This document shows positions 18,924 to 48,500 of a stretch of DNA of 64,000 bases, piece by piece. Numbering within the stretch: position 1 is the stretch's first letter; each line of letters starts with the position of its first letter. Source of the stretch: Gammaproteobacteria bacterium (GTDB taxonomy: Bacteria > Pseudomonadota > Gammaproteobacteria > QZLD01); contig JAWSVA010000006.1 of NCBI GenBank assembly GCA_033852155.1, positions 16,843 to 80,842 on the forward strand, read 5' to 3'. Made by a program: the position numbers and the translations under genes. The notes beneath the pieces were generated by a model that saw only the letters and a program-made list of their open reading frames with translations, did not search any database and had not been told where the DNA came from.

Positions 18924-20300
18924 ATGTTGCACGTTTATAACAGCTTAACCAAGAAAAAAGAGCCATTCCAACCATTAGAAGAGGGAAAGGTAAAAATGTA
19001 TGTTTGCGGAATGACGGTCTATGACTACTGTCACCTGGGGCATGCGCGTGCAATGGTTGTATTTGATATGGTGGTGCGCTACTTGCGCTATCGTGATTAC
19101 GACGTTAACTATGTGCGGAATATTACCGATGTTGATGACAAGATCATCGCGCGTGCAATCGAGAACGGTGAAGAGATAAATGCACTGACAGAACGCTTTA
19201 TCGAGGCGATGTATGAAGATGCAGATGCACTAGGTGTGCTGCGCCCGAATGCCGAGCCAAAGGCAACAGAGTCTATCGATCTTATTGTCGGCATGATTCA
19301 AAAGCTAATCGATAAAGGTGCTGCTTATCAGGCGTCTAACGGAGATGTATATTCTCGCGTTGCGAGTTTTAAATCCTACGGTAAACTTTCGGGTAAGAAC
19401 ATTGATGAGCTGCGTGCCGGTGAACGTATCGCTGTAGACCAGGTGAAAGAATCTCCATTTGATTTTGTACTGTGGAAGATGGCAAAGCCGGGTGAGCCGC
19501 ATTGGGATTCTCCCTGGGGCGAAGGTCGTCCTGGCTGGCACATCGAATGTTCAGCAATGGCATTTGATGAGTTGGGTGAGAGCTTTGATATCCACGGTGG
19601 TGGTCTAGATCTGCAATTCCCGCATCACGAGAACGAGATCGCGATGTCCGAGACCGTGACCGAAAAACCATTTGCTAAATACTGGATGCATAATGGCCAC
19701 GTTCGCGTTGACCAGGAGAAGATGTCAAAATCACTGGGTAACTTCTTCACCATTCGTGAGATTCTGAAAAAATACAAGGCGGAAGAGATACGCTTCTTCC
19801 TGCTAACCAGCGGTTATCGCTCACCATTAAATTACACCGAAGAGAATCTGCAGCAAGCAAAGCAAACATTGTTAAAACTTTACACTTCTCTGCGTGGTAT
19901 TGAAGTTGGTAAGGCGCCGGGGCAGTCTGAATATAAAGATCGTTTCATTGCCGCTATGGATGATGATTTCAATACTCCAGCTGCCATAGCAGTGTTGCAT
20001 GAGTTATCGGTTGAGGTTAACAAGGCGAGGGATGCAGGTAGTGATTCGTTCGGTGAATTAGCTGCAACCTTGGTAGCGCTTGGAAATGTTCTGGGGTTGT
20101 TGGAACACGATGTTGATGAATTCTTTCAAGGTGATGCGGATGGATTAGCTGCCGCAGAGATCGATGCGCTTGTCGCGCAGCGTAATCAAGCGCGTGCAGA
20201 TAAAAACTGGGCTGAAGCTGACCGAGTTCGTGACGAATTAAAAGAGCAAGGCATAGTGATTGAAGATGGCGCTGGTGGAACCAGCTGGCGTAGAGAGTAG
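18924..20300 (+). CDS. cysS: Cysteine--tRNA ligase
   Basis: [28 protein letters not shown]; ATG 18924 preferred over the ORF-track start at 18882. Confidence 0.98.
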
Positions 20301-22345: not shown

Positions 22346-22536
22346 GGGGGTGTCCTCAGTGTTGGTTTTAAGAATATCAGAGGTTGATGGTCTTTATCTG
22401 TTGGGTGCAATTATAGCGAAAAATCATACTAAGTGGTGGATAATTTCGTAAAAACCATCTCTCAATAGAGGAGATAAGCTTTGATAGTGTGTATAATTCT
22501 TTGTATCTGGTATAGGTGGGAGGTCAAAGGGTATAG

Positions 22537-23958
22537 ATGCTAAATCTTATGGAGTGTACCCCGATTGCACAGTTTGCGATTGGTTTAGATCATAAGATCG
22601 TTTCTCTTAACCGCGCATGTGAGTTGTTGACTGGTTTCTCTGCAAAAGAGGTGGTTGATACTGATATGCAGTGGCGCTTGTTCTATGATAACCCACGTCC
22701 GGTTTTGGCTGACCTTATTCTCGAGCAGGATTTTATCGGTTTTCAGAAACTGTATGAAGGAAAGGATCCTGGTAAATCTCCAATCGTCCCCTTTGCTTGG
22801 GAGGCTACCGATTATTTTGAAGATATGGGTGGAAAGCCGCGCTATATCTATTTTTTAGCCGCACCTATCTTTGATAATAATAATATTATGACGGGCGCAG
22901 TAACTACTTTGCAGGACGTTACCGAGCAAAAGCTGCGTGAAGCATCTATGCAGCGCGAATCTAAACTGTTACAGCAAGAGAATACTAAGCTTAAGTCTTC
23001 AATCCAAGAGCGTTACCGTTTTAGTAATATCATCGGTAAGAGTTCTGCTATGCAGAATGTCTACGATATGATTGTCAAAGCATCTGCTAACCTTTCCGAG
23101 TCCGCTAGTGTGGTTATCTATGGTGAGTCAGGAACAGGTAAAGAGCTTGTTGCTAAAGCGGTGCATGATATGAGTTCTCGTCATGATAAGCCGTTTGTGG
23201 CGGTAAACTGCGGGGCAATCCCAGAGAATTTACTTGAGAGTGCATTTTTTGGTCATGCTAAAGGCGCTTTTACTGGTGCGTATCAAGCCAAGGCTGGCTT
23301 TTTAGATCAGGCTGATGGCGGCACATTGTTTCTGGATGAGATTGGTGAACTTGATATTAATCTGCAGGTAAAACTGCTGCGTGCTATTGAGGCTAAAGAG
23401 TACTCTCCTGTTGGGCAGGCTACGGTTAAAAAATCAGATTTTTGTATTGTCGCAGCTACAAATCGAGATTTGCTTGATGAAGTAAACAAAGGTGATTTCC
23501 GAGAAGACTTTTATTATCGAATCCATGTGATTCCTATTAATATTCCGCCGCTGCGAGATAGGAAGGAAGATATTCCTCTTTTGGTAGATCATTTTCTAAA
23601 AGGTGTGGGTCTTGATATGGGGGAGTCTCCTTTGCCGGGCAAGGTGATGGATGCTCTGTATAACTATCATTGGCCGGGAAATGTGCGGGAATTGCAAAAT
23701 AGCGTTAGTCGTTATGTAACTCTCAATACTCTTGAGTTTAGAGACCAGGTGGTTGTGGAATCAAGTGATGATGGTTCTAACAGCGGGGTAGCTATTGCGG
23801 ATGATGTTGGGTATGTCGACGCTATGGATAGCTTTGAACGCTCATATATTCTAAAAATGTTAAATGATGGGCGCTGGAATAGGCGGGCAGTTGCTGACGA
23901 GATAGGGATTTCGCGACGTACACTGTTTCGTAGGATGCAAAAACTTGGGATAGAATAG
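22537..23958 (+). CDS. Sigma54-dependent enhancer-binding protein (PAS-AAA+-Fis HTH)
   Basis: N-terminal PAS ([14 protein letters not shown]), GESGTGKE, intact [23 protein letters not shown]-terminal [14 protein letters not shown]. Confidence 0.96.
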
Positions 23959-23964
23959 TCTCTA

Positions 23965-24055
23965 TGTGGGACAGATTTGTCCCGCAATGTAAAATCTCTT
24001 TATTATTAGTAATCTACAGTATTAGCTCGCCATGATGTGAGACATAAGTGTCCCA
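23965..24055. promoter_or_regulatory. Two palindromic upstream activator-like sites: GGGACA-GATT-TGTCCC (23968-23983) and GAGACA-TAAG-TGTCCC (24039-24054)
   Basis: Both share TGTG(G/A)GACA-N4-TGTCCC; centres are 71 bp apart, about 125 and 195 bp upstream of the predicted sigma54 start. Confidence 0.7.
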
Positions 24056-24143
24056 TCTGCATATTGGCGCGCTTTTATCGTTAGAAAAGTTTAATGATGA
24101 ATTTCATCAGATATTTCAGCAGTATATGGCTTCTTATCTATTG

Positions 24144-24160
24144 TTGGCACGCATATTGAC
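24144..24160 (+). promoter_or_regulatory. Sigma54 -24/-12 promoter (TTGGCAC-GCATA-TTGAC)
   Basis: Perfect -24 element with N5 spacing; -12 reads TTGA instead of TTGC; lies next to the activator gene and its candidate sites. Confidence 0.7.
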
Positions 24161-24236
24161 TAGTTATTCGCTGAATGTTTTTTAAAATATTCGGGCTAGA
24201 CATCGCAACATCGTTGTGTAGGAGCGATAAGGGTCT

Positions 24237-24491
24237 GTGAAGAAAATGATAGACGAATGCATGGTTGAGTTACTTGCTGAGTTGGATGCAAAAACAGTTC
24301 AAGTAAGTGAAACAGAGATAATTGAAGAGTGTGCAAGAAGAATCGGAGAAGAAAAATTACTTAATTTGAGCAAGGAGGAGCTCAGGCGCGAGATTCTGGT
24401 AGCCCTGGAGGCATCACCTCTATTCAGGAAAACCTATCTCAGGCCGGAGCGAGATGATCAAAATCTAAGTAAGTGTTATCTGGTCGTATAG
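24237..24491 (+). CDS. Small hypothetical protein, first gene of the predicted sigma54 operon
   Basis: 84 aa; AGGAG upstream of the GTG start; ends 37 nt before satP. Confidence 0.65.
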   Translation: MKKMIDECMVELLAELDAKTVQVSETEIIEECARRIGEEKLLNLSKEELRREILVALEASPLFRKTYLRPERDDQNLSKCYLVV

Positions 24492-24528: not shown

Positions 24529-25086
24529 ATGAACGAAAAAAATTACGCCAACCCTGGGCCGTTAGGTTTGATGGGGTTTGGTATGACAACAGTTTTGTTA
24601 AATATCCATAATGCTGGATTTTTCCCTATTAGTGCAATGATATTAGCAATGGGTATATTCTACGGTGGTATAGCGCAGATCATTGCAGGTGTGCTTGAAT
24701 TTAAAAAAGGTAATACCTTCGGTGTTACAGCATTTATCTCTTATGGTTTCTTTTGGATAACGCTTGTTGCTTTGATGTTGATGCCAAAACTTGGTTGGAC
24801 TGAGGCAACTCCTCATGGGTTCATGGCTTGGTTCCTATTTATGTGGGGTGTATTTACTCTATTTATGTTTGTTGGAACACTCAAGGCGAATAAGACATTA
24901 AGATTTATATTTGGCTCATTGGCGGTATTGTTCTTCTTGCTGGCGATAAGAGATTGGACGGGTTCTGAATTGATTGGGCGCATAGCTGGGTGGGAAGGTA
25001 TTGCATGTGGTTTAAGTGCTATCTACCTTGCAATGGCTGAGGTTATTAATGAGCAGTTTGATTCGGCTCTACTGCCTGTTGGCTAG
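24529..25086 (+). CDS. satP: Acetate/succinate channel SatP (GPR1/FUN34/YaaH family), copy 1
   Basis: ANPGPLGLMGFGMTT signature, YGG..Q, SYGFFW; SD AGGAG. Confidence 0.95.
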   Translation: MNEKNYANPGPLGLMGFGMTTVLLNIHNAGFFPISAMILAMGIFYGGIAQIIAGVLEFKKGNTFGVTAFISYGFFWITLVALMLMPKLGWTEATPHGFMAWFLFMWGVFTLFMFVGTLKANKTLRFIFGSLAVLFFLLAIRDWTGSELIGRIAGWEGIACGLSAIYLAMAEVINEQFDSALLPVG

Positions 25087-25135: not shown

Positions 25136-25210
25136 AAGAGTACTAGACCCCTGTCGAAGTTCATTACGCTCATGCTAGACCTCCCTGTAATGCACTTCGA
25201 TAGGCCTATT
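25136..25210 (+). ncRNA. Structured non-coding repeat unit 1
   Basis: AAGAGTACTAGACCCCTGTCGAAGTTCATTAC-[GCTCATGCTAGACCTCCCT]-GTAATGCACTTCGATAGGCCTATT; long stem with a 19-nt loop. Confidence 0.75.
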
Positions 25211-25317
25211 AAATTTCAAAATGTAAAATTATTAGCACCTGATGATGGCTGATGCTACTTAGGTGATTAATGATGCGTGTAATACTTGATTAAGTGCAAA
25301 ATAGGAATTAAAGATAA

Positions 25318-25875
25318 ATGAGCGAAAACAATTACGCTAACCCAGGTCCATTAGGTTTAATGGGTTTTGGAATGACAACAGTTCTGCTAAATATACACAA
25401 TGCCGGATTCTTTCCAATTAGTGCGATGATTCTCGCAATGGGAATCTTTTACGGTGGATTGGCGCAGATAGTTGCTGGAGTGCTTGAGTTTAAAAAAGGC
25501 AATACCTTTGCGATGACAGCGTTTATTTCTTATGGTTTCTTTTGGATAACATTGGTTGCATTGATTCTTATGCCTAAAATGGGTTGGATTGAGGCAACTC
25601 CAAATGGCTTCATGGGGTGGTTTCTGACTCTATGGGGAATGTTTACCCTGTTTATGTTTATTGGAACATTTAAAGCAAATAAAGCATTGCGCTTGGTTTT
25701 CTTTTTGGCGACAGTATTGTTCTTCTTGTTAGCGGCAAAAGATTTTACTGGGTTAGAAATTCTTGGTCGAATTGCAGGCTGGGAGGGTATTTTATGTGGT
25801 CTTTCGGCATTCTACTTGGCAATGGCTGAAGTGATTAATGAGCAGTTTGATGCCGCTCTTCTGCCTGTAGGTTAA
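25318..25875 (+). CDS. satP: Acetate/succinate channel SatP, copy 2
   Basis: Same signatures and same 185-aa length as copy 1; close paralog. Confidence 0.95.
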   Translation: MSENNYANPGPLGLMGFGMTTVLLNIHNAGFFPISAMILAMGIFYGGLAQIVAGVLEFKKGNTFAMTAFISYGFFWITLVALILMPKMGWIEATPNGFMGWFLTLWGMFTLFMFIGTFKANKALRLVFFLATVLFFLLAAKDFTGLEILGRIAGWEGILCGLSAFYLAMAEVINEQFDAALLPVG

Positions 25876-25932
25876 TTGAATAGAAAAAGTTTAAAAGGCG
25901 CTATTTTAGTTTAAATTAATTGGCGCTGAGTT

Positions 25933-26007
25933 AAGAGTACTAGACCCCTGCTGAAGTTCATTGCAATTATGCTAGACCTCCTCGTAATGCTCTTCGGTAG
26001 GCCTACT
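25933..26007 (+). ncRNA. Structured non-coding repeat unit 2
   Basis: CCTGCTGAAG/CTTCGGTAGG stem with compensatory changes relative to unit 1; 19-nt loop AATTATGCTAGACCTCCTC. Confidence 0.75.
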
Positions 26008-26091
26008 CCAAAAAAGTTTGATCTGAATTAATTACTTTGGTCGCTTAGTTCAAGTATCGGTCATAACTAAGTGACCAAGGTAGTTAATATA

Positions 26092-26166
26092 AAGAGTACT
26101 AGACCCCTGTCGAAGTTCATTGCGCCCATGCTAAACCTCCTAGTGATGAGCTTCGATAGGCCTACT
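26092..26166 (+). ncRNA. Structured non-coding repeat unit 3
   Basis: Continuous 18-bp stem when G-U pairs are allowed; 19-nt loop GCCCATGCTAAACCTCCTA. Confidence 0.75.
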
Positions 26167-26259
26167 TTGAATAATTAAGAATGGATATCAAGAATAGAAT
26201 TAATGACCCTAGTCGCAGGCATTTGATGTATCAGGCCTAGCGATTAGAGTGATTAATAT

Positions 26260-26335
26260 AAGAGTACTAGGCCCCCTGCCAATTTACACTGCGCCTATAG
26301 CTAGACCTCCTGTGATGCAAATTGGCAGATCTCTC
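26260..26335 (+). ncRNA. Structured non-coding repeat unit 4 (most diverged)
   Basis: Stem rewritten to CTGCCAATTT/AAATTGGCAG and still perfectly paired; 19-nt loop GCCTATAGCTAGACCTCCT. Confidence 0.72.
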
Positions 26336-26536
26336 TAGGTTTGCACCTAAAGCTTTAGCTAGGTTAGATGCTAATCGCATCACAAAACATCCGGAAAACA
26401 CCTATCCTTTTGTAGGATATATCCCCCTTAAAAATCTTGTTTTAAATTTCACTTGTTAAATCATCTTGTTGCAGGCTGTGTAAATAAGCACCTTTCCTGT
26501 TAGGATTGCGTTTTGGTACATTTATGATGAAATTTT

Positions 26537-27097
26537 ATGCTGTATAGATATGAAGTATTGAATATTGCCGCCGGCGATATATTTGTGGTTTGTAGTGCTG
26601 AAAAGTTGATTTTTACTTGTTTTGTTTATGTTGATGACGCTGGAGGAAAATCAGATACCTACTGTGGAGCTACTGGTCGTATCAAAGAGGGATTGGAGGA
26701 GTTTGGTCGATTTGCCAAACGCAAAATATTGGGTGAAATAAAAATGGAACCTGATTACCTGTTTGTGAGAAATGTGTTTGATAGGGCTTTTGTCCTTAGT
26801 GAAACAGGTGAGCAAATGCAGTGCTTTGAATTGATTGGAACAGAATTTCAAAAAAAGGTTTGGAGGGCGCTATGTGATATTCCCGTTGGAGCGACAACAA
26901 CCTATAAGAAAGTTGCAGTAAGCATTGGAATGATATCGGCAGTAAGAGCGGTTGCTAATGCCATAGGTGCTAATAATATTGCACCATTGATACCTTGTCA
27001 TCGAGTTGTTCGCTCTGGTGGCGGTCTAGGTGGTTATCGTTGGGGGGGAGAGGTAAAGAAAGCATTGTTGGAAAGTGAGGTGAAATTGCAGGAATAA
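26537..27097 (+). CDS. ogt: Methylated-DNA--protein-cysteine methyltransferase
   Basis: GTEFQKKVW, RAVANA, active-site PCHRV, LGGYRWG. Confidence 0.9.
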   Translation: MLYRYEVLNIAAGDIFVVCSAEKLIFTCFVYVDDAGGKSDTYCGATGRIKEGLEEFGRFAKRKILGEIKMEPDYLFVRNVFDRAFVLSETGEQMQCFELIGTEFQKKVWRALCDIPVGATTTYKKVAVSIGMISAVRAVANAIGANNIAPLIPCHRVVRSGGGLGGYRWGGEVKKALLESEVKLQE

Positions 27098-28024: not shown

Positions 28025-28290
28025 GGTGAGCAGCTTCAAAGTATTGAGCTGTTTGGGCTCGTTTTCAAAAAAGGTTGGGGTGGAGCTATGTGCTATTCCA
28101 GCTGGAGCGACAACAACTTATAAGAAAATTGCATCAAGCATTGAAATGATATCGGCAGTAAGAGCTGTTGCTAAGCCAAAGATGCTAATAATGTTGCGCT
28201 ACTGATATATTGTCATTGTGTGGTTCGCTCTGATGGTGGTCTAGGTGGTTATCGCTAGGAAGTAGGGGGCAAGAAAACATTGTTGAAATA
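28025..28290 (+). pseudogene. ogt: Degraded duplicate of the 3' half of ogt
   Basis: Aligns by eye to about 26807-27075 (TGGAGCGACAACAAC, ATGATATCGGCAGTAAGAGC, GGTCTAGGTGGTTATCG); has a 1-nt deletion, PCHR changed to YCHC and TGG changed to TAG. Confidence 0.85.
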
Positions 28291-28377: not shown

Positions 28378-31008
28378 TTAGAACCAGCTCCAGCTGCTCC
28401 ACATTGAAGTCCAATCAAATACTCCTCCTGTTGAGCCTGAGTCAGTATCAGTATCGGTATCGGTATCGGTATCGGTATCAGTATCAGTATCAGTATCAGT
28501 ATCAGTATCAGTATCAGTATCAGTATCAGTATCAGTATCAGTATCAGTATCAGTATCGGTATCTCTAACTACTCTGCGATTGTTCTCAAACATGAACTGA
28601 GTAACGAATGTAGGGTAGTCAACATGGTTGTGGTCGATATAGCTGCCACCTGAACCACCGTCACCTGCAGGCCACGCGTGGCTCATGCCTGAAACCATGA
28701 TTTTAGAAACACGTACACCTTCACTATCGCTATAGGTCGTTTCAGTTCCGCCACCTGCAATGCTCATGGTTCCAGAATCTTTGGCCGCACCGTAAATATT
28801 GGCCATCGCTTCAGCGCTAAGATCAGCGTAACCCGTTGCTACTGTGTAGTCAGATGTGCCGTGTACGATTGAGGTAATTTGAGTATCAAATGAATCCTTG
28901 GTTGATCCAGCAAAAGTGTTGCAAAGGCTTACAGTGGAGCTCTCATTAGTTCCAACAGAACCGATTTGGCCAGAAGATGTGCCAATAGTTGGCCCCGCAT
29001 TGATGCCGATACCCGCAAATACATCTGGAGCAAGACATCCCATTACATGAGTTTGGCCACCACCTGATGAAAGACCTGAGATGTAAACTTGAGCCGCATC
29101 GATATTTAGGCTTGAATCGGATTTAAGTGACTCAGCAAGATCCAGTAGGTTGTCATCATGTCTGCTAGGTCTGGTTCTGCTGTGGTTTGAGTCATAGTAG
29201 TCCCAGCATCCGGCGATTACACCGCCATTAGGAGCGTCGGGAGTAGCTACAACCATTCCATATGCATCAGCAACATCCTGCCAGTTCGCATAGTTTTTCA
29301 TGTCTTCATTTTTTTGAGCACAACCATGCATGTTAATCATCAGTGCACGCTTGCCAGCAAGAACAGGGGCAGATTTTGGTAGGTATATGTGAACTTGCAT
29401 GCCAGCTATAGTTTTTGTAGACCAGCTTCCTGCAGGGATGTCGCCAGAGTTTACATCAACGTCACCAGTAGATCCGCCGCCATTGTTAGTGTTATCGCTA
29501 GAATCGCCGTCTGATCCTGAATCACCAGTGTTGTTTGTGCCGCCAGGGTTAACATCACTCCATGATCCGTTTACTAGTTGGTATAGGGTGAATGGTGTGC
29601 TTCCATATTTTGCGTTGTAGTCCAGGTACTCGTTAAGAGATAGAGTTTTATCCACATAAAAATTAACCGCAGTATCTGTTTTAGATGGCGCAACATATGA
29701 AGGAGCAGTAGTTGAGAAGGTGATCTGATTTGAAGGTTGACTTTCGTTGCCGCAATAATCAACAGCTACTGCATAAATTGTGTAGCTGGACTGTGAAGAA
29801 AGTCCAGAAGCAGTAAGAGTAGTGCTGTTTACAACTCCAGAAATTGAAGAACCATCACTTCTATATAGCTTATAACCTTTTAGATCTGCTTCATTGTTAG
29901 TTGAAACAGTTAAAGTAGCGTAATTATCATATGTTTTAGAAAGTTTTAAATTTGAAGGTGCTGCTGGTGCAGTGTAATCAGCATCACATTCGGCAGAATT
30001 ATTTACAACTTCAGAGCCATCAAATGATTTGTCTTGGAAAAAGTTCCATAATGCTTGACTAGTGCTCGGGCCTTTATCGTATGCCCATTGCTCATAACCT
30101 GAATCATCGCCACCCCAGTAATGCCCTTTGCCATATTGTCCCTCTTTGGGGCCGTATGTAGCGCCATCAAAGAACATGGTCTGTACAATAACGTTACCGT
30201 TGGAGTCTTTGTATGAGGTTAAATCGCAGTTAATACCTTCAGCGTCACAGCTCTCAACACCATCAGCGCTCTTGTTTATGCCAAATGCATCAAGGTGTGA
30301 ATCACGAATTAGCTCACCTGCAGTAATTTGAACAATCTCATCTCTAGTTGAATTAACTACTAGCATAGGTATTGGGCGATCGTCATCTAGCTCGCTTTTT
30401 ACTGCATCAGTATGTTGTGAAAGGCTTTTGAACATGTCAGATAAAACAGAAGAAGACCAGTCTCCATACGCTAATCCGGCAACAGGAGCAGCTGCGGCCC
30501 AGTATTCGTTATAGGCAATAGCGGCTGCAACAGTCATTGCGCCGCCAGAAGATAGGCCAGTAATGTATCTACGGTTAGGGTCAATGCTATATTTTGTTTC
30601 AACTTCTTTACCTAAGCTGTATAGGTCGGTAACTTCTCCAGCGCCTTCGTGTATCTCAGCGTCAAACCAGTAACCCCAGCAATTGTCATTACGCATGCCG
30701 GTATAAGAGGTTATATGAGGGAAAACAATGATCACATTGTTTTGGTCTGCAATTAGATCAAGGTTCCAGTTGTTTAGTGCGTCGGTATTGTCCATGGCGC
30801 AGCCATGAAGAGCCATTATCATAGGAACTTTTTCGCTACCAGTGTACGACTTAGGAACATAAACCTTATAGTTTCTATCGCGTGAACCTGAATAGGATTT
30901 TGCTTTAAATGTGTGGTTGTCTATGTCGCCTGATCCAGTAAGTGAGCCTGCATATGCAGTACCAGCAAGCATTGATAGTGATAAAATCACTCCGCCTAGC
31001 ATTTTCAT
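28378..31008 (-). CDS. Secreted PHB depolymerase-family esterase with two catalytic domains, an Fn3 domain and a (DT)20 tail
   Basis: Signal peptide; two LpqC/PhaZ-type domains (LHGC..GLSSGG and MHGC..GLSSGG..HG..D..HAW); Fn3 (APAAPSNL..YAVAVD..GNES). Confidence 0.88.
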   Translation of the reverse strand: MKMLGGVILSLSMLAGTAYAGSLTGSGDIDNHTFKAKSYSGSRDRNYKVYVPKSYTGSEKVPMIMALHGCAMDNTDALNNWNLDLIADQNNVIIVFPHITSYTGMRNDNCWGYWFDAEIHEGAGEVTDLYSLGKEVETKYSIDPNRRYITGLSSGGAMTVAAAIAYNEYWAAAAPVAGLAYGDWSSSVLSDMFKSLSQHTDAVKSELDDDRPIPMLVVNSTRDEIVQITAGELIRDSHLDAFGINKSADGVESCDAEGINCDLTSYKDSNGNVIVQTMFFDGATYGPKEGQYGKGHYWGGDDSGYEQWAYDKGPSTSQALWNFFQDKSFDGSEVVNNSAECDADYTAPAAPSNLKLSKTYDNYATLTVSTNNEADLKGYKLYRSDGSSISGVVNSTTLTASGLSSQSSYTIYAVAVDYCGNESQPSNQITFSTTAPSYVAPSKTDTAVNFYVDKTLSLNEYLDYNAKYGSTPFTLYQLVNGSWSDVNPGGTNNTGDSGSDGDSSDNTNNGGGSTGDVDVNSGDIPAGSWSTKTIAGMQVHIYLPKSAPVLAGKRALMINMHGCAQKNEDMKNYANWQDVADAYGMVVATPDAPNGGVIAGCWDYYDSNHSRTRPSRHDDNLLDLAESLKSDSSLNIDAAQVYISGLSSGGGQTHVMGCLAPDVFAGIGINAGPTIGTSSGQIGSVGTNESSTVSLCNTFAGSTKDSFDTQITSIVHGTSDYTVATGYADLSAEAMANIYGAAKDSGTMSIAGGGTETTYSDSEGVRVSKIMVSGMSHAWPAGDGGSGGSYIDHNHVDYPTFVTQFMFENNRRVVRDTDTDTDTDTDTDTDTDTDTDTDTDTDTDTDTDTDTDTDTDSGSTGGVFDWTSMWSSWSWF
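28441..28563 (-). repeat. In-frame 6-bp tandem repeat encoding (DT)20-D
   Basis: GATACT/GATACC units, 41 codons. Confidence 0.97.
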
Positions 31009-31605: not shown

Positions 31606-31682
31606 CGGGGTGTAGCGCAGCCTGGTAGCGCAACTGCTTTGGGAGCAGTGGGTCGGGGGTTCGAATCCCTCCTCCCCGACCA
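31606..31682 (+). tRNA. tRNA-Pro(TGG)
   Basis: Cloverleaf, anticodon loop TTTGGGA, GGTTCGAATCC, encoded CCA. Confidence 0.97.
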
Positions 31683-31710
31683 AAAGCTGTCTCAGCAGCT
31701 TTCGAGACTT

Positions 31711-31787
31711 GCGCTCGTAGCTCAACTGGATAGAGCAACGGCCTTCTAAGCCGTAGGTTGCAGGTTCGAGTCCTGCCGAGCGCACCA
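31711..31787 (+). tRNA. tRNA-Arg(TCT)
   Basis: Anticodon loop CTTCTAA, T-arm, CCA. Confidence 0.97.
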
Positions 31788-31818
31788 TATCTCGGAAAGA
31801 GATAACTTGCAGAATTAT

Positions 31819-31895
31819 GGTGGGCGTAGCTCAGTTGGTAGAGCTCCGGATTGTGATTCCGGCGGTCGTGGGTTCAATCCCCATCGTCCACCCCA
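31819..31895 (+). tRNA. tRNA-His(GTG)
   Basis: G-1/C73, anticodon loop TTGTGAT, CCA. Confidence 0.97.
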
Positions 31896-32021
31896 GATTT
31901 TGTGTAAAATTTTATATCATGTAAAATTTAACATAAGAAAGGTAGAACACAAGGCAGAAAGCTGTCTGACCTGGATTAAGTTCCAAAAGTGTAAAAGAAA
32001 TAATAGATGAAAGAAAAACGT

Positions 32022-32106
<85 letters not shown>

Positions 32107-39146: not shown

Positions 39147-39222
39147 GGGTGCTTAGCTCAGCTGGGAGAGCGTCGCCCTTACAAGGCGGATGTCGGGGGT
39201 TCGATCCCCTCAGCACCCACCA
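39147..39222 (+). tRNA. tRNA-Val(TAC)
   Basis: Anticodon loop CTTACAA, CCA. Confidence 0.97.
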
Positions 39223-39229
39223 AGAAAAC

Positions 39230-39306
39230 GGAGCGGTAGTTCAGTTGGTTAGAATACCGGCCTGTCACGCCGGGGGTCGCGGGTTCGAGTCCCGTCCGCT
39301 CCGCCA
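39230..39306 (+). tRNA. tRNA-Asp(GTC)
   Basis: Anticodon loop CTGTCAC, CCA. Confidence 0.97.
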
Positions 39307-45540: not shown

Positions 45541-48500
45541 ATGGAGACACAAATGAAAAAGTTACTTATTGGATTAATAAAAGTTTTTGTATTGTCAGTT
45601 GGTTTTGTGGCAACAGCATCAGCTGCTGAAAATGTAGCTCTGTTTTTTAATACGTCTTATGTTGATTCTTCAGGAACAAGTTCTAGTTCAGAACCTTACA
45701 ACCTAAAATTATCACTTGAAAGCTTTGGGCATACAGTAACAACTTTTACCGGGATAACAGCAGCTGAAGTTACTACAGCTTTAATTGGTAAATCAATTTT
45801 AGCTATGCCAGAAATGGAATCTGGTGATCTCAATGCAGCCATGGCAGCAGATGCCAAGCAGGTGATCAATGACTGGGTAACTGCTGGTGGGATATTGCTT
45901 GTAAATAATGATGGCAGTAATCAAGGTGGGAGTGTAATAAACGGCATATTTGGGGGGTGGTCTTTGCAGGGAGGGCAATCTTTATCGGATGGAACCCTCT
46001 TTCCTAAACAATCAGATACAACTGGTACCTTGTTTGAAAGTGGTCCAGCATCAATTCCAGGGTATAGTTTGACGTTGCCTTTATTGGTTAGCTCTCTTCC
46101 TAGTGGAGCGTTAAACCTCTATGGTGATGGAGCTAATGAAACAGTACTCTTCTATAAAAGCGAAGGGTATGGAGCGGTTTATTTCTTTGCTTGGGATTGG
46201 TATAACGCAGCCCCAAATGGAGCAGAAAATGGTGGTTGGTTAAATGTTCTTGAAGTAGCGACAACTCCTCCAGTTGTAAAGATTAGTGAAATATCAGGTG
46301 ATGTTACTGAGTCAGGTGGTGCAGCAACTTTTACTGCTGTTTTATTAGAGGCGCCTACTGCAAATGTAATCTTTTCACTAACCTCTTCTGATACAACAGA
46401 AGGAACCATATCTGCAAGCTCAGCTACATTCACTGCAGCAAACTGGAATGTGCCACAAACATTTACAGTTACTGGTGTGGATGATGCGCTAGATGATGAT
46501 GATATCCAGTTTCAGATAATAACAGGTAGTACAACAAGTGCTGATGCTGATTTTAATAATCAATTGCCCAGAAATATTGTTGTTACTTGCATCGATAATG
46601 AAACTCCGCCAACGATTACTTCAAATGGTGGTGGAGCAACAGCTGCAATAGATGTTGCAGAAAATCAAACTGCTGTTACGACAGTAACGGCTATAGATCC
46701 TGAGCAAACGCCTACTTTTTCAATAACTGGCGGAGCTGATTTAGCTTCATTCTCTATAGATGAGAACAGTGGTGTTTTAACTTTCGATAGTGCGCCAGAT
46801 TATGAGACAAAAACAAGTTATGTGGTTGAGATAACAGCTAGCGATGGGAATTTAACTGATACACAAACCATTACGGTTACGGTTACGGATGTAGATGATA
46901 ATAACCCAGTTATAACATCAAATGGTGGTGGTGCAACAGCGGTAATAAACGCTGCAGAAAATCAAACTGCGGTAACCACCGTTACTTCTACTGATGCTGA
47001 TGCAATAAGTACAGTAACATACAGTTTAACTGGTGGTGCAGACCAGGCATCATTTAGTATAGTTGGTGCTACAGGGGTGTTAACATTCCAGAGTGCCCCA
47101 GATAGAGAGGCGCAATCAACGTATGTTGTTGAAGTGACGGCTAGTGATACCACAAATACAGATGTTCAAGCTATTACGGTAACAATAACCGATGTTAATG
47201 ATAATATCCCTGTTATTACTTCTAATGGCGGTGGTGCTACAGCAGCAATAAATGCAGCAGAAAATCAAACAGCGGTTACAACCGTAGTTGCTATAGATGC
47301 AGATGCAACCAGTACAGTAACCTACTCAATTAGTGGTGGAGCAGATCAAGCTTCCTTCGGCATCATCGGTGCCACAGGAGTATTAACCTTTAATAGTGCC
47401 CCAGACAGAGAAGTTAAATCAAGTTACGTAGTTGAAGTAACCGCAAGTGATACCACAAATACAGATGTTCAAACTATTACGGTAACAATAACAGATGTTA
47501 ATGATAATACCCCTGTTATTACCTCTAATGGCGGTGGAGCGACAGCCGCAATAGATGCTGCAGAAAATCAAACAACGGTAACCACGGTTACTGCTACTGA
47601 TGCCGATTCAACTAGTACAGTAACTTATAGTATTTCAGGCGGGGCAGATCAGGCTTCATTTGGCATAGTTGGCGCTACTGGAGTATTAACTTTTAATAGT
47701 GCACCAGACCGGGAAGTTAAATCAAGCTACGTGGTTGAAGTAGCCGCAAGTGATACTACAAATACAGATGTTCAAACTATTACGGTAACAATAACAGATG
47801 TTAATGATAATACCCCGGTAATTACCAGTGCCGCGATAACTTCTGCTGTGGAAGAAGTGGCATATAGTTATACGATTACTGCAACTGATGTAGATCAAGC
47901 AACCACGCTAACCTTTAGCGCTATAACTAAACCGACATGGTTGTCTGTTAATAGTGTATCGGGTGAGGTTTCAGGGACTCCTCCAGCCTCTGCCGTTGAT
48001 GATCATGCTATTGTTGTACGAGTAAGCGATAGCATTAATCAAATTGATCATAGCTATACATTAACTGTATTGGCAGATTTGGATGGTGACGGCACCCCAG
48101 ATACAACAGATACAGATATTGATGGGGATGGAATGCCTAATGACTTTGAAAATACACATGGTCTAGATCCAAGAGATGATTCTGATGCTGCTACAGATCT
48201 TGATGGTGACGGATTAAGTAATCTTGATGAATATACGGCAAGTAAAAATCCAACTCAGGATGATGTTGTTCCTGTAGTAACAGCCCCTGCAGATCTTGAA
48301 ATAAATTCAGAAGAACTGTTTACCCAGGTTGATCTTGGTACAGCTACTGCTATTGATGCTCTTGATGGGAATCTTGTACCAACAGCTAGCCAAACAGGTA
48401 GATTTGAGCCGGGAACACATACAGTAACCTGGAGTGCTACTGATGCTGCTGGTAATACCGGGCAGGCTACTCAAACAGTAAAGGTAAAGCCTTTAGTTGA

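What the first reader, a model, noticed from the sequence alone, without database searches (positions are those of the whole stretch)
25168..26311. The conserved loop is the antisense of a full SD-plus-start-codon site
The unit 1 loop CAUGCUAGACCUCCC is the reverse complement of GGGAGG-UCUAGC-AUG, an SD with a 6-nt spacer and AUG; unit 3 gives GGAGG-UUUAGC-AUG (seen). The differences among units 1-3 (CAU/UAU, CUAGA/CUAAA) can all still pair, through G-U, with one target GGAGGUUUAGCAUG. This predicts specific target mRNAs blocked at translation initiation (inference). Unit 4 has a shifted 5' loop and may have a different target.
Basis: partly seen in the sequence, partly recalled or inferred. 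Interest (0 to 1): 0.7.

Follow-up and report, generated by a model that had tools for sequence, protein, structure and literature searches.

The report
Anti-ribosome-site hairpin RNAs after satP
Four copies of a small hairpin RNA beside acetate-transporter genes display a loop that mirrors a ribosome binding site, so they probably silence other genes, but no gene with the predicted full matching site exists.

Summary
Four ~76-nt units (25136-25212, 25933-26007, 26092-26168, 26260-26337, + strand) each form an 18-bp stem with a 19-nt loop. The loop core YAUGCUARACCUCC is the exact antisense of GGAGG, a 6-nt spacer and AUG in units 1 and 3. Unit 2 also fits through G-U pairs. Unit 4 is shifted by one base. 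Fourteen units from four genomes of one uncultured plastisphere gammaproteobacterial genus show strong stem covariation, and the G-U bias (31 versus 5) places the RNA on the + strand. The units sit inside and after an operon predicted to depend on sigma-54 (small ORF, satP, satP). Metatranscriptome contigs run through unit 1.

The predicted specific target was not found. GGAGGUYUAGCAUG occurs only as the units' own antisense in all four genomes, and near-matches at start codons are no commoner than for shuffled controls. The best single-genome hits (a nuoG-like gene and the operon's activator) are not conserved. Only the pgk start region keeps GAGGUUUAG in all four genomes, and the sister genus lacks it. 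That sister genus carries a different CCUCCUCCC element after satP.

My reading is a new, genus-restricted family of anti-Shine-Dalgarno hairpin sRNAs, analogous to the alphaproteobacterial CcsR/cuckoo RNAs. Their targets are unresolved. Interest is moderate.

The parts
25136..25212 (+). Unit 1: hairpin RNA between satP1 and satP2. Loop 25168-25186 holds CAUGCUAGACCUCCC.
   Evidence: CM R1 98.3 bits; fold -22.9 kcal/mol, z -5.55; covered by metatranscriptome contigs that continue from satP1 into satP2.
25933..26007 (+). Unit 2: hairpin RNA after satP2. Loop 25965-25983 holds UAUGCUAGACCUCC.
   Evidence: CM 88.8 bits; fold -20.7 kcal/mol, z -2.66, with the 19-nt loop fully open.
26027..26088 (+). 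Spacer hairpin A: 24 contiguous base pairs between units 2 and 3.
   Evidence: Fold -30.3 kcal/mol on + against -19.3 on -. Spurious sub-threshold Rfam mir-9 hit. Conserved in G002 with compensatory and G-U changes (by eye).
26092..26168 (+). Unit 3: hairpin RNA. Loop 26124-26142 holds CAUGCUAAACCUCC.
   Evidence: CM 95.5 bits; fold -26.6 kcal/mol on + against -19.1 on -. A low-depth RNA contig covers 26049-26164.
26199..26257 (+). Spacer hairpin B between units 3 and 4.
   Evidence: Fold -25.4 kcal/mol on + against -22.0 on -, z -5.5.
26260..26337 (+). Unit 4: divergent unit. Loop 26293-26311 holds UAUAGCUAGACCUCC (one base inserted).
   Evidence: CM 79.4 bits; fold -18.8 kcal/mol on + (z -0.45) against -28.1 on -. 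Its G002 counterpart is degenerate, at 21.6 bits.
24145..24159 (+). Sigma-54-type promoter TGGCACGCATATTGA, with two upstream inverted repeats (23968-23983 and 24039-24054).
   Evidence: TGGCACG-N4-TTG is kept upstream of the small ORF in G001, G002, G003 and G004.
22537..23958 (+). PAS / sigma-54-interaction / HTH_8 activator (EBP).
   Evidence: Pfam PF00158 6.4e-65, PF13426, PF02954. Synteny is kept in 4 genomes.
24246..24491 (+). 81-aa ORF with no known family, first gene of the operon.
   Evidence: No Pfam hit. 77-96% identity within the genus, 41% in the sister genus. No convincing match in 400 other genomes of the class.
24529..25086 (+). satP1 (GPR1/FUN34/YaaH acetate/succinate transporter).
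   Evidence: PF01184 5.1e-38.
25318..25875 (+). satP2 (paralogue).
   Evidence: PF01184 1e-39.

Best explanation
The four units are copies of a genus-specific small structured RNA, made from the + strand as part of, or processed out of, the small ORF-satP-satP transcript that a PAS-domain activator is predicted to switch on through a sigma-54 promoter. Each unit is a rod: an invariant 5' box (AGAGUACUAGACCCCUG), an 18-bp stem free to change as long as it pairs, and a 19-nt open loop displaying A(A/G)ACCUCC, a copy of the 16S rRNA 3' tail, extended by AUGCUA. The most likely action is the classical one for anti-Shine-Dalgarno sRNAs. The loop pairs with the Shine-Dalgarno region, and up to the start codon, of target mRNAs and blocks 30S binding, so that induction of acetate/succinate uptake is coupled to repression of other genes. 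Shown here: the structure, the strand, loop conservation, operon context and presence in RNA libraries. Inferred: the sigma-54 dependence of the operon (from sequence motifs only), processing (the long spacer hairpins look like RNase III substrates, and no unit has its own conserved promoter or a U-tract terminator), the base-pairing mechanism, and the targets. The full 14-nt anti-RBS has no cognate in the genome. Real targets probably use 8-11 nt, and pgk is the only candidate conserved in all four genomes.
For: Structure: 14 units, 92.8% of 290 pair cells paired, 11 of 18 main-stem pairs with changes on both sides, 0 of 500 shuffles as good, slid controls 44% paired or less. Strand: 31 G-U cells valid only on +, against 5 A-C cells. 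Spacer hairpin A is -30.3 kcal/mol on + against -19.3 on -. This is the same strand as satP. Loop constraint. The loop matches the genome's 16S 3' end, GGATCACCTCCTTT. Expression: RNA-library contigs start at 24203/24219, just downstream of the sigma-54 promoter, and run through satP1, unit 1 and into satP2. Those runs gave no cover of 23900-24181, which two DNA runs of the same study cover. No own promoter or terminator: the sequence upstream of the 5' box is not conserved among units, and no terminator-like site falls on a unit. Family-level support for the anti-SD core: the sister genus G004 has the same sigma-54 promoter, small ORF and satP, followed by a hairpin and a single-stranded AACCUCCUCCCUCCUG. 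Precedent: CcsR1-4 are four homologous anti-SD-loop sRNAs cut by RNase E from the 3' UTR of a small-protein mRNA, and NfeR1 silences ntrB with 8-nt anti-SD seeds (passages). Candidate target: the pgk start region holds GAGGTTTAG in 4 of 4 genomes, with predicted duplexes of -17 to -18.5 kcal/mol for at least one own unit in each genome, and this sequence is absent from pgk in G004. Hfq is encoded in the genome.
Against: No target with the full complement exists, and there is no enrichment of partial matches at start codons or genome-wide. This is odd for a 14-nt loop kept this strictly. The invariant 5' box has no complementary site of 10 nt or more elsewhere (89 nine-mers found against about 236 expected) and is unexplained by the pairing model. 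The units lack the U-rich 3' tail typical of Hfq-dependent sRNAs. Unit 4 folds better on the minus strand. RNA evidence comes from assembled contigs of one study, from a relative about 91% identical. Contigs cannot show strand, ends or processing, and units 2 and 4 were not covered. pgk ranks only 58 of 5,140 in G000, and its conserved 9-mer includes the Shine-Dalgarno itself.
Confidence: 0.5

Rival explanations
1. Protein-recognition or processing elements. The 5' box (UACUAGACCCC) and the loop (UGCUAGACCUCC) are two copies of one motif read by an RNA-binding protein or nuclease, perhaps the co-encoded 81-aa protein by analogy with CcaF1. The units would then control processing or stability of the satP mRNA, or titrate that protein. 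The resemblance to an anti-RBS would be incidental.
For: The box and the loop share CUAGACC(Y)CC. The box is the most conserved part (97%) yet has no complementary RNA site. No cognate mRNA exists for the full loop. Composite units in G001 and G003 carry an extra nested copy of the box motif. The small ORF always accompanies the locus, including in G004. CcaF1 binds CcsR RNAs and affects their maturation (passages).
Against: The 81-aa protein has no recognisable RNA-binding family or fold and is acidic. The G004 element keeps only the CCUCC-type core, not CUAGACC, so the anti-SD looks like the conserved function. Half of the loops have CUAAACC rather than CUAGACC.
Confidence: 0.2
2. Local feedback device. 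The loops pair with the start region of the operon's own sigma-54 activator (22512-22540), or with the operon leader, as Qrr sRNAs feed back on luxO and NfeR1 on ntrBC.
For: In G000 the activator's start region, GGGAGGTC..ATG, is the best local duplex for units 1 and 4 (-21.9 and -21.5 kcal/mol) and ranks 19 of 5,140. The conserved leader AGGGGUCUG partly matches the 5' box in G001 and G003 (by eye). Precedent.
Against: The pairing is not conserved: best duplex -14.9 kcal/mol in G002, -10.5 in G001 and -8.7 in G003. About one duplex of -20 kcal/mol is expected by chance in a 5-kb scan (my estimate from the energy distribution, not separately computed).
Confidence: 0.1
3. The minus strand is the coding one. 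The GGAGG-N6-ATG is a real ribosome site for small, partly hydrophobic peptides, and the + strand RNA is their cis-antisense partner, as in a type I toxin-antitoxin array.
For: Ideal SD-to-ATG spacing on the minus strand in 6 of 12 units. Peptides such as MGAMNFDRGLVLFILTTLVT are predicted. Sigma-70-like minus-strand promoters score 10 of 12 inside units 3 and 4. Tandem copies are typical of type I systems (recalled).
Against: 6 of 12 units lack the ATG. The peptides are 9, 12, 20, 33, 34 and 41 aa, and the first-position units after satP in G001 and G003 differ (33 against 12 aa). Only the part encoded by the RNA-conserved box is shared. Stem substitutions are compensated on the arm outside the ORF, and the G-U bias favours +.
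Confidence: 0.06
4. DNA-level or generic elements with no sequence-specific RNA role: REP/MITE-like palindromes, recombination sites or plain terminators. A minus-strand CsrA sponge using the GGA in the loop is a further variant.
For: The shape is palindromic. One unit appears nested inside another in G001 and G003. The minus-strand loops read A(N)GGAGG, and CsrA is encoded.
Against: Only 4 copies exist, all at one locus. G-U pairs show selection at the RNA level on +. Neither a U-tract terminator nor an Rfam CsrB/Rsm hit was found. The loop is conserved far beyond what a terminator needs.
Confidence: 0.04

Closest known systems
CcsR1-4 / 'cuckoo' RNAs (RSs0680, alpha-r14 family including NfeR1) of Alphaproteobacteria
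   Same: Hairpins whose only conserved sequence is an anti-Shine-Dalgarno loop, while the stems vary by compensatory change. They occur in clustered homologous copies (up to 9). CcsR1-4 are co-transcribed with a small-protein gene and released from its 3' UTR. They act on translation initiation regions with short seeds (passages read). The sister-genus element even contains CCUCCUCCC.
   Different: No sequence or covariance-model similarity (Rfam). The loop here is AUGCUARACCUCC, not CCUCCUCCC. Each repeat is one long hairpin plus an invariant 5' box, not 2-4 short hairpins. The host is a gammaproteobacterium. The neighbours are satP and an 81-aa protein that is not DUF1127. The promoter is sigma-54-type rather than RpoHI/HII.
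Qrr1-5 sRNAs with LuxO (Vibrio)
   Same: Several sibling sRNAs are linked to a sigma-54 activator, with feedback on the activator's mRNA (abstract listing; reference list entry; the rest recalled).
   Different: Each qrr has its own sigma-54 promoter. No such promoter precedes any unit. No Rfam Qrr hit. The feedback pairing is not conserved here.
3'-UTR or operon-derived sRNAs of enterobacteria (SdhX, CpxQ, SroC; recalled, no paper read)
   Same: A regulatory RNA is made from the end of a metabolic or transport mRNA, coupling the operon's induction to repression of other genes. SdhX links the TCA operon to acetate metabolism.
   Different: Those are single copies ending in an Hfq-binding U-tract terminator, with linear seeds. 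Here there are four copies, the seed is presented in a loop, and there is no U-tract.
Staphylococcus aureus RNAIII hairpins and RsaE-type C-rich loop sRNAs (recalled; review listed, not read)
   Same: C-rich loops of stable hairpins pair with Shine-Dalgarno sequences.
   Different: Firmicute UCCC motifs, unrelated sequence, and not arranged as operon-internal repeats.

Membership tests
Cuckoo / CcsR / alpha-r14 sRNA family | Loop motif CCUCCUCCC in each hairpin | tested here: not met
   The loops read A(A/G)ACCUCC(C/U)(U/..). None of the 14 units contains CCUCCUCCC. Only the sister-genus element does.
Cuckoo / CcsR / alpha-r14 sRNA family | 2-4 adjacent short hairpins per RNA; detectable by family models | tested here: not met
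   Each repeat is one 18-bp hairpin. No Rfam family reached E<=10 except spurious miRNA and snoRNA models.
Cuckoo / CcsR / alpha-r14 sRNA family | CIN1 context: adjacent small DUF1127 protein gene | tested here: not met
   The 81-aa ORF has no Pfam hit at E<=0.01. A small ORF is present but unrelated.
Cuckoo / CcsR / alpha-r14 sRNA family | Released from a precursor by RNase E; represses targets at the RBS | not testable with these tools
   Only assembled RNA contigs were available.
Qrr sRNAs | Own sigma-54 promoter and activator sites upstream of each sRNA; Qrr covariance model | tested here: not met
   The only good TGGCAC-N5-TTG site of the locus is at 24145. Unit upstream regions are not conserved. 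No Rfam hit.
Type I toxin-antitoxin | Conserved small hydrophobic ORF opposite the antisense RNA | tested here: not met
   An ATG is present in 6 of 12 units. ORFs are 9-41 aa and are not conserved beyond the RNA box.
CsrB/RsmZ-type sponges | Many GGA motifs in loops of one transcript; family model | tested here: not met
   There is one GGA per unit, and only on the minus strand. The G-U bias favours +. No Rfam hit.
REP / MITE repeats | Many dispersed copies in the genome | tested here: not met
   nhmmer and CM searches find 4 copies, all at this locus.
Intrinsic terminators | G+C-rich stem followed by a U-tract | tested here: not met
   None of the 4 terminator-like sites of the scan falls on a unit. 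The tails read CCUAUUAA or CCUACUUU.
Operon/3'UTR-derived trans-acting sRNA (functional class) | Co-transcription with the upstream mRNA | tested here: inconclusive
   RNA-library contigs are continuous from satP1 through unit 1 into satP2, and begin just after the sigma-54 promoter. Contigs cannot prove a single transcript.

The most novel reading that the evidence does not exclude
A family-specific regulatory module of an uncultured plastic-colonising gammaproteobacterial lineage. A sigma-54 operon would encode a novel small protein, acetate/succinate transporters and an array of RNase-released 'anti-RBS' hairpins. Their loops copy both RNA readers of an initiation site (the 16S tail ACCUCC and the initiator anticodon CAU). 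The array would throttle central carbon metabolism (pgk and others) when short-chain acids from polymer breakdown are imported. The small protein would play a CcaF1-like maturation role, arrived at independently of the alphaproteobacterial CcsR system.
Probability: 0.15. Interest if true: 0.6.

Novelty: new variant of a known kind. Interest (0 to 1): 0.4.

Why it matters
If the mechanism holds, this is an independent invention in Gammaproteobacteria of the 'small protein plus tandem anti-SD hairpin sRNAs' design known from Rhodobacter and Sinorhizobium. Here it is tied to uptake of acetate or succinate in bacteria that live on biodegradable plastics. It would give a compact natural example of a loop that is antisense to a whole ribosome binding site. 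It would also add a new RNA family for Rfam-type libraries. As it stands it is a well-supported new structured RNA with an unproven function in an uncultured organism.

Tried and rejected
**Known families and wider searches**
- Rfam, at gathering and permissive thresholds, gave only tRNAs and spurious miRNA/snoRNA hits.
- The exact-pattern scan of JGI metagenome contigs for box plus loop gave 0 loci.
- BLAST of the array against plasmid and phage collections matched only the satP coding sequence.

**Target candidates that did not hold up**
- GGAGGTTTATCATG recurs in several genomes, but at non-orthologous places inside coding regions.
- GGAGGTTTAGCATT is conserved between G000 and G002, but lies inside the folP coding sequence.
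- The clpX start region (GAGGTTTAGTAATG) and the gltB start region (GGAGGTCTACAATG) match in G000. clpX gave no match in any relative. gltB matched in G002 but not in G001 or G003 at 2 mismatches or fewer.
- The CUAGAC in the operon leader next to an RNA end at 24203 is not conserved in relatives.
- A 14-bp G-U-rich match inside satP1 (about 24573-24586) is at the level expected by chance.

**The 81-aa protein**
- The AlphaFold model (pLDDT 72.9, helical) has no PDB fold match at E<=0.001.
- The protein atlas gave nothing at 0.9 or above.
- A profile search of 400 genomes of the class gave only E>0.001 hits outside the family.

**RNA-library cover**
- No cover of units 2 and 4 was seen. This says nothing either way.
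- The RNA contig that ends at 26164 is low depth and from one study, so I do not count it as a 3' end.

**Tools and literature**
- Three literature searches and one follow-up (the dnaK motif near enterobacterial satP, unrelated) found no description of a satP-linked anti-SD RNA.
Full report
**1. What is there**

The window is part of a 3.1-Mb, 39% G+C assembly in 26 contigs. Its only close relatives among 185,579 species genomes are three metagenome-assembled 'Gammaproteobacteria bacterium' records. Public runs holding this DNA are labelled plastisphere or plastic metagenomes.

Between 25136 and 26337 lie four copies of a roughly 76-nt unit on the + strand. Unit 1 sits between two satP paralogues. 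Units 2 to 4 follow the second paralogue and are separated by two long spacer hairpins. Each unit has three parts:
- an invariant 5' box, AAGAGTACTAGACCCCTG;
- an 18-bp stem;
- a 19-nt loop, followed by GGCCTAY.

The coordinates 25168 and 26311 are the first base of loop 1 and the last base of loop 4. Against the single target GGAGGUUUAGCAUG, units 1 to 3 pair at 14 of 14 positions (1, 2 and 0 wobbles). Unit 4 pairs at 11 of 14 because of a one-base insertion.

**2. A real, conserved RNA structure on the + strand**

A profile and a covariance model find only these four copies in the own genome. Among 101 genomes searched, 4 have matches, and all 4 belong to one genus. A metagenome pattern scan found none, and Rfam has no matching family.

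Fourteen units from the four genomes were aligned. The counts on that alignment are as follows.

| Measure | Result |
|---|---|
| Pair cells forming standard pairs | 92.8% of 290 |
| Main-stem pairs with changes on both sides | 11 of 18 |
| Shuffles reaching the observed values | 0 of 500 |
| Slid controls, cells paired | 44% or less |
| Watson-Crick cells | 238 |
| G-U cells (pairs only on the + strand) | 31 |
| A-C cells (would pair only on the minus strand) | 5 |
| Other mismatches | 16 |

Spacer hairpin A gives the same answer on strand: -30.3 kcal/mol on + against -19.3 on -. Unit 4 is the exception and folds better on the minus strand.

In the 12 best units the 5' box is 97% conserved, while the stem arms are 83% and 81% conserved. 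Every position of YAUGCUARACCUCC is kept in 10 to 12 of 12 units. Across all 14 units:
- ACCTCC occurs in 12;
- ATGCTA[AG]ACCTCC occurs in 9;
- these 9 comprise 6 with a preceding C and 3 with a preceding T.

The 3' half of the loop equals the 16S rRNA tail of this genome, GGATCACCTCCTTT.

**3. Context and expression**

Synteny is the same in all four genomes:
- folD on the minus strand;
- a PAS / sigma-54 activator;
- an 81-aa ORF with no known family;
- satP, in one to three copies, each followed or preceded by units;
- an Ogt-like gene;
- a PHB-depolymerase-like gene on the minus strand.

A sigma-54-type promoter (TGGCACG-N4-TTG) with upstream inverted repeats precedes the small ORF in every genome. 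Nothing conserved precedes the individual units. No terminator-like site falls on a unit.

Contigs from two metatranscriptome runs of one study, from a strain about 91% identical, begin at 24203 and 24219. They run through the small ORF, satP1 and unit 1 into satP2. The same runs gave no cover of the activator's 3' end, which two DNA runs of that study do cover. One low-depth RNA contig covers spacer hairpin A and unit 3.

This fits co-transcription with later processing. However, contigs cannot show strand, ends or a single transcript.

**4.

- Exact GGAGGTYTAGCATG occurs twice in the genome, and both occurrences are the antisense of units 1 and 3. In the three relatives the exact matches are likewise only the units.
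- With up to 2 mismatches the counts are 23, 16 and 19, against 18, 16 and 6 for the reversed-pattern control. These counts include 1, 3 and 2 hits from the units themselves.
- At 46,350 candidate start codons, 22 sites pair at 12 or more of 14 positions. Thirty controls with a shuffled spacer gave 25.2 +/- 6.5. At 13 or more the figures are 1 against 2.7.
- Genome-wide runs of 11 or more pairs number 156 for loop 1 and 367 for loop 2. Shuffled loops gave 181.5 and 308.3.

Energy ranking used 5,140 candidate starts that have an SD-like motif.
- A nuoG-like gene comes first (GGAGGCGTAGCATGAGC, -30.0 kcal/mol with unit 1). G001 and G002 instead have GGAGGCGTAGATTATG at that site.
- The operon's own activator ranks 19th (-21.9 kcal/mol). 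Its best pairing falls to -14.9, -10.5 and -8.7 kcal/mol in G002, G001 and G003.

The one conserved lead is pgk.
- GAGGTYTAG followed within 6 nt by ATG occurs at a real start in all four genomes only at pgk. The flanks vary around an invariant GAGGTTTAG.
- Predicted duplexes with at least one own unit are -17 to -18.5 kcal/mol in every genome.
- In the sister genus G004, whose element lacks CUAAACC, the pgk start region reads AGAGGAAGCGAGATG.
- Total counts of this pattern equal the control, so this is a lead and not an enrichment.

**5. The sister genus**

G004 has the same sigma-54 promoter, a 41%-identical small ORF and satP. Downstream of satP is a hairpin followed by a single-stranded AACCUCCUCCCUCCUG. 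An anti-SD element after satP therefore seems older than the genus, while the AUGCUA extension and the 5' box are specific to the genus. This points to CCUCC as the functional core.

**6. Rivals**

*Minus-strand peptides.* Only 6 of 12 units keep the ATG. The ORFs are 9, 12, 20, 33, 34 and 41 aa. The first-position units after satP in G001 and G003 give 33 against 12 aa. Together with the G-U bias, I reject coding as the conserved function.

*Protein recognition.* This remains a serious rival. The box and the loop share CUAGACC(Y)CC. The box has no complementary site elsewhere. The full loop has no cognate mRNA. However, the 81-aa protein gives no hint of RNA binding.

*Other rivals.* Feedback on the activator is not conserved. 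REP/MITE repeats, plain terminators and Csr-sponge readings each fail their defining features.

**7. Comparison with known systems**

The closest analogue in function is the alphaproteobacterial CcsR / cuckoo / alpha-r14 group. I read passages of three papers for this.
- PMC4615179: the loop motif CCUCCUCCC is the only conserved sequence, the stems vary through compensatory changes, and clusters reach 9 copies.
- PMC10746234: NfeR1 silences ntrB at its start region with 8-nt anti-SD seeds, closing a feedback loop with NtrBC.

Membership of that family is not met. The loop motif, hairpin number, neighbouring protein family and covariance models all differ (see the membership table). Three literature searches found no satP-linked anti-SD RNA. 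I did not look at supplementary files.

**8. Verdict**

The general idea, an anti-SD loop acting on initiation sites, is the best-supported mechanism, and I give it about 0.5. The specific prediction of a cognate GGAGGUYUAGCAUG target fails in all four genomes. The start-codon complement on its own is within chance (about 8%).

This is a new, narrowly distributed RNA family that works like a known kind. Interest is moderate, limited by an uncultured host and unresolved targets.

Noticed in passing
window 22537-22548 versus loops at 26128-26139 and 25172-25183: The loop, read in sense (AUGCUAAACCUC, 'MLNL'), resembles the first codons of the sigma-54 activator gene (ATGCTAAATCTT, MLNL). There is an 8-nt exact run plus two transitions. 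The resemblance is weaker in G001 (ATGCTTAATCTA). This could be chance (about 1%) or a trace of origin or mimicry.
   Followed up: partly
window 24203: In one RNA run a high-depth contig (about 122) begins exactly at 24203 and is directly joined to sequencing-adapter letters. The position is about 30 nt downstream of the expected sigma-54 start, which suggests a discrete RNA 5' end or processing site in the operon leader.
   Followed up: partly
L017:4747-4835 (-) and L018:5810-5923 (+): The third unit in G001 and G003 is composite. An extra copy of the 5'-box motif and a second small hairpin are nested inside the loop of an outer unit, as if one unit had been inserted into another.
   Followed up: no
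L086 (G004), about 2075-2105 of the reverse-complemented locus: The sister genus carries AACCUCCUCCCUCCUG after satP. This contains the exact alphaproteobacterial 'cuckoo' motif CCUCCUCCC. It is followed by a hairpin with a CA-rich loop.
   Followed up: partly
window 28026-28205 (+): A 59-aa ORF repeats part of the Ogt-like DNA-binding domain of 26537-27097 (..IPAGATTTYKKIASSIEMISAVRAVA..). It looks like a truncated second copy.
   Followed up: no
window 28378-31008 (-): An 876-aa secreted esterase / PHB-depolymerase-like protein has a long Asp-Thr dipeptide repeat near its C-terminus. The repeat also opens a YQ/RY-repeat ORF on the other strand.
   Followed up: no
G000:C11 about 19434-19480 (+): A hairpin, GGTTTAGCATGAGTTGAAAATACGAAGTCTAAACC, has a 5' arm that gives the longest non-self complementary run to loop 1 (15 pairs including G-U) and a 3' arm that resembles the loop core. 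No ORF starts there.
   Followed up: no
window 31606-32103 and 39147-39303: Two tRNA gene clusters, of four and two genes.
   Followed up: no
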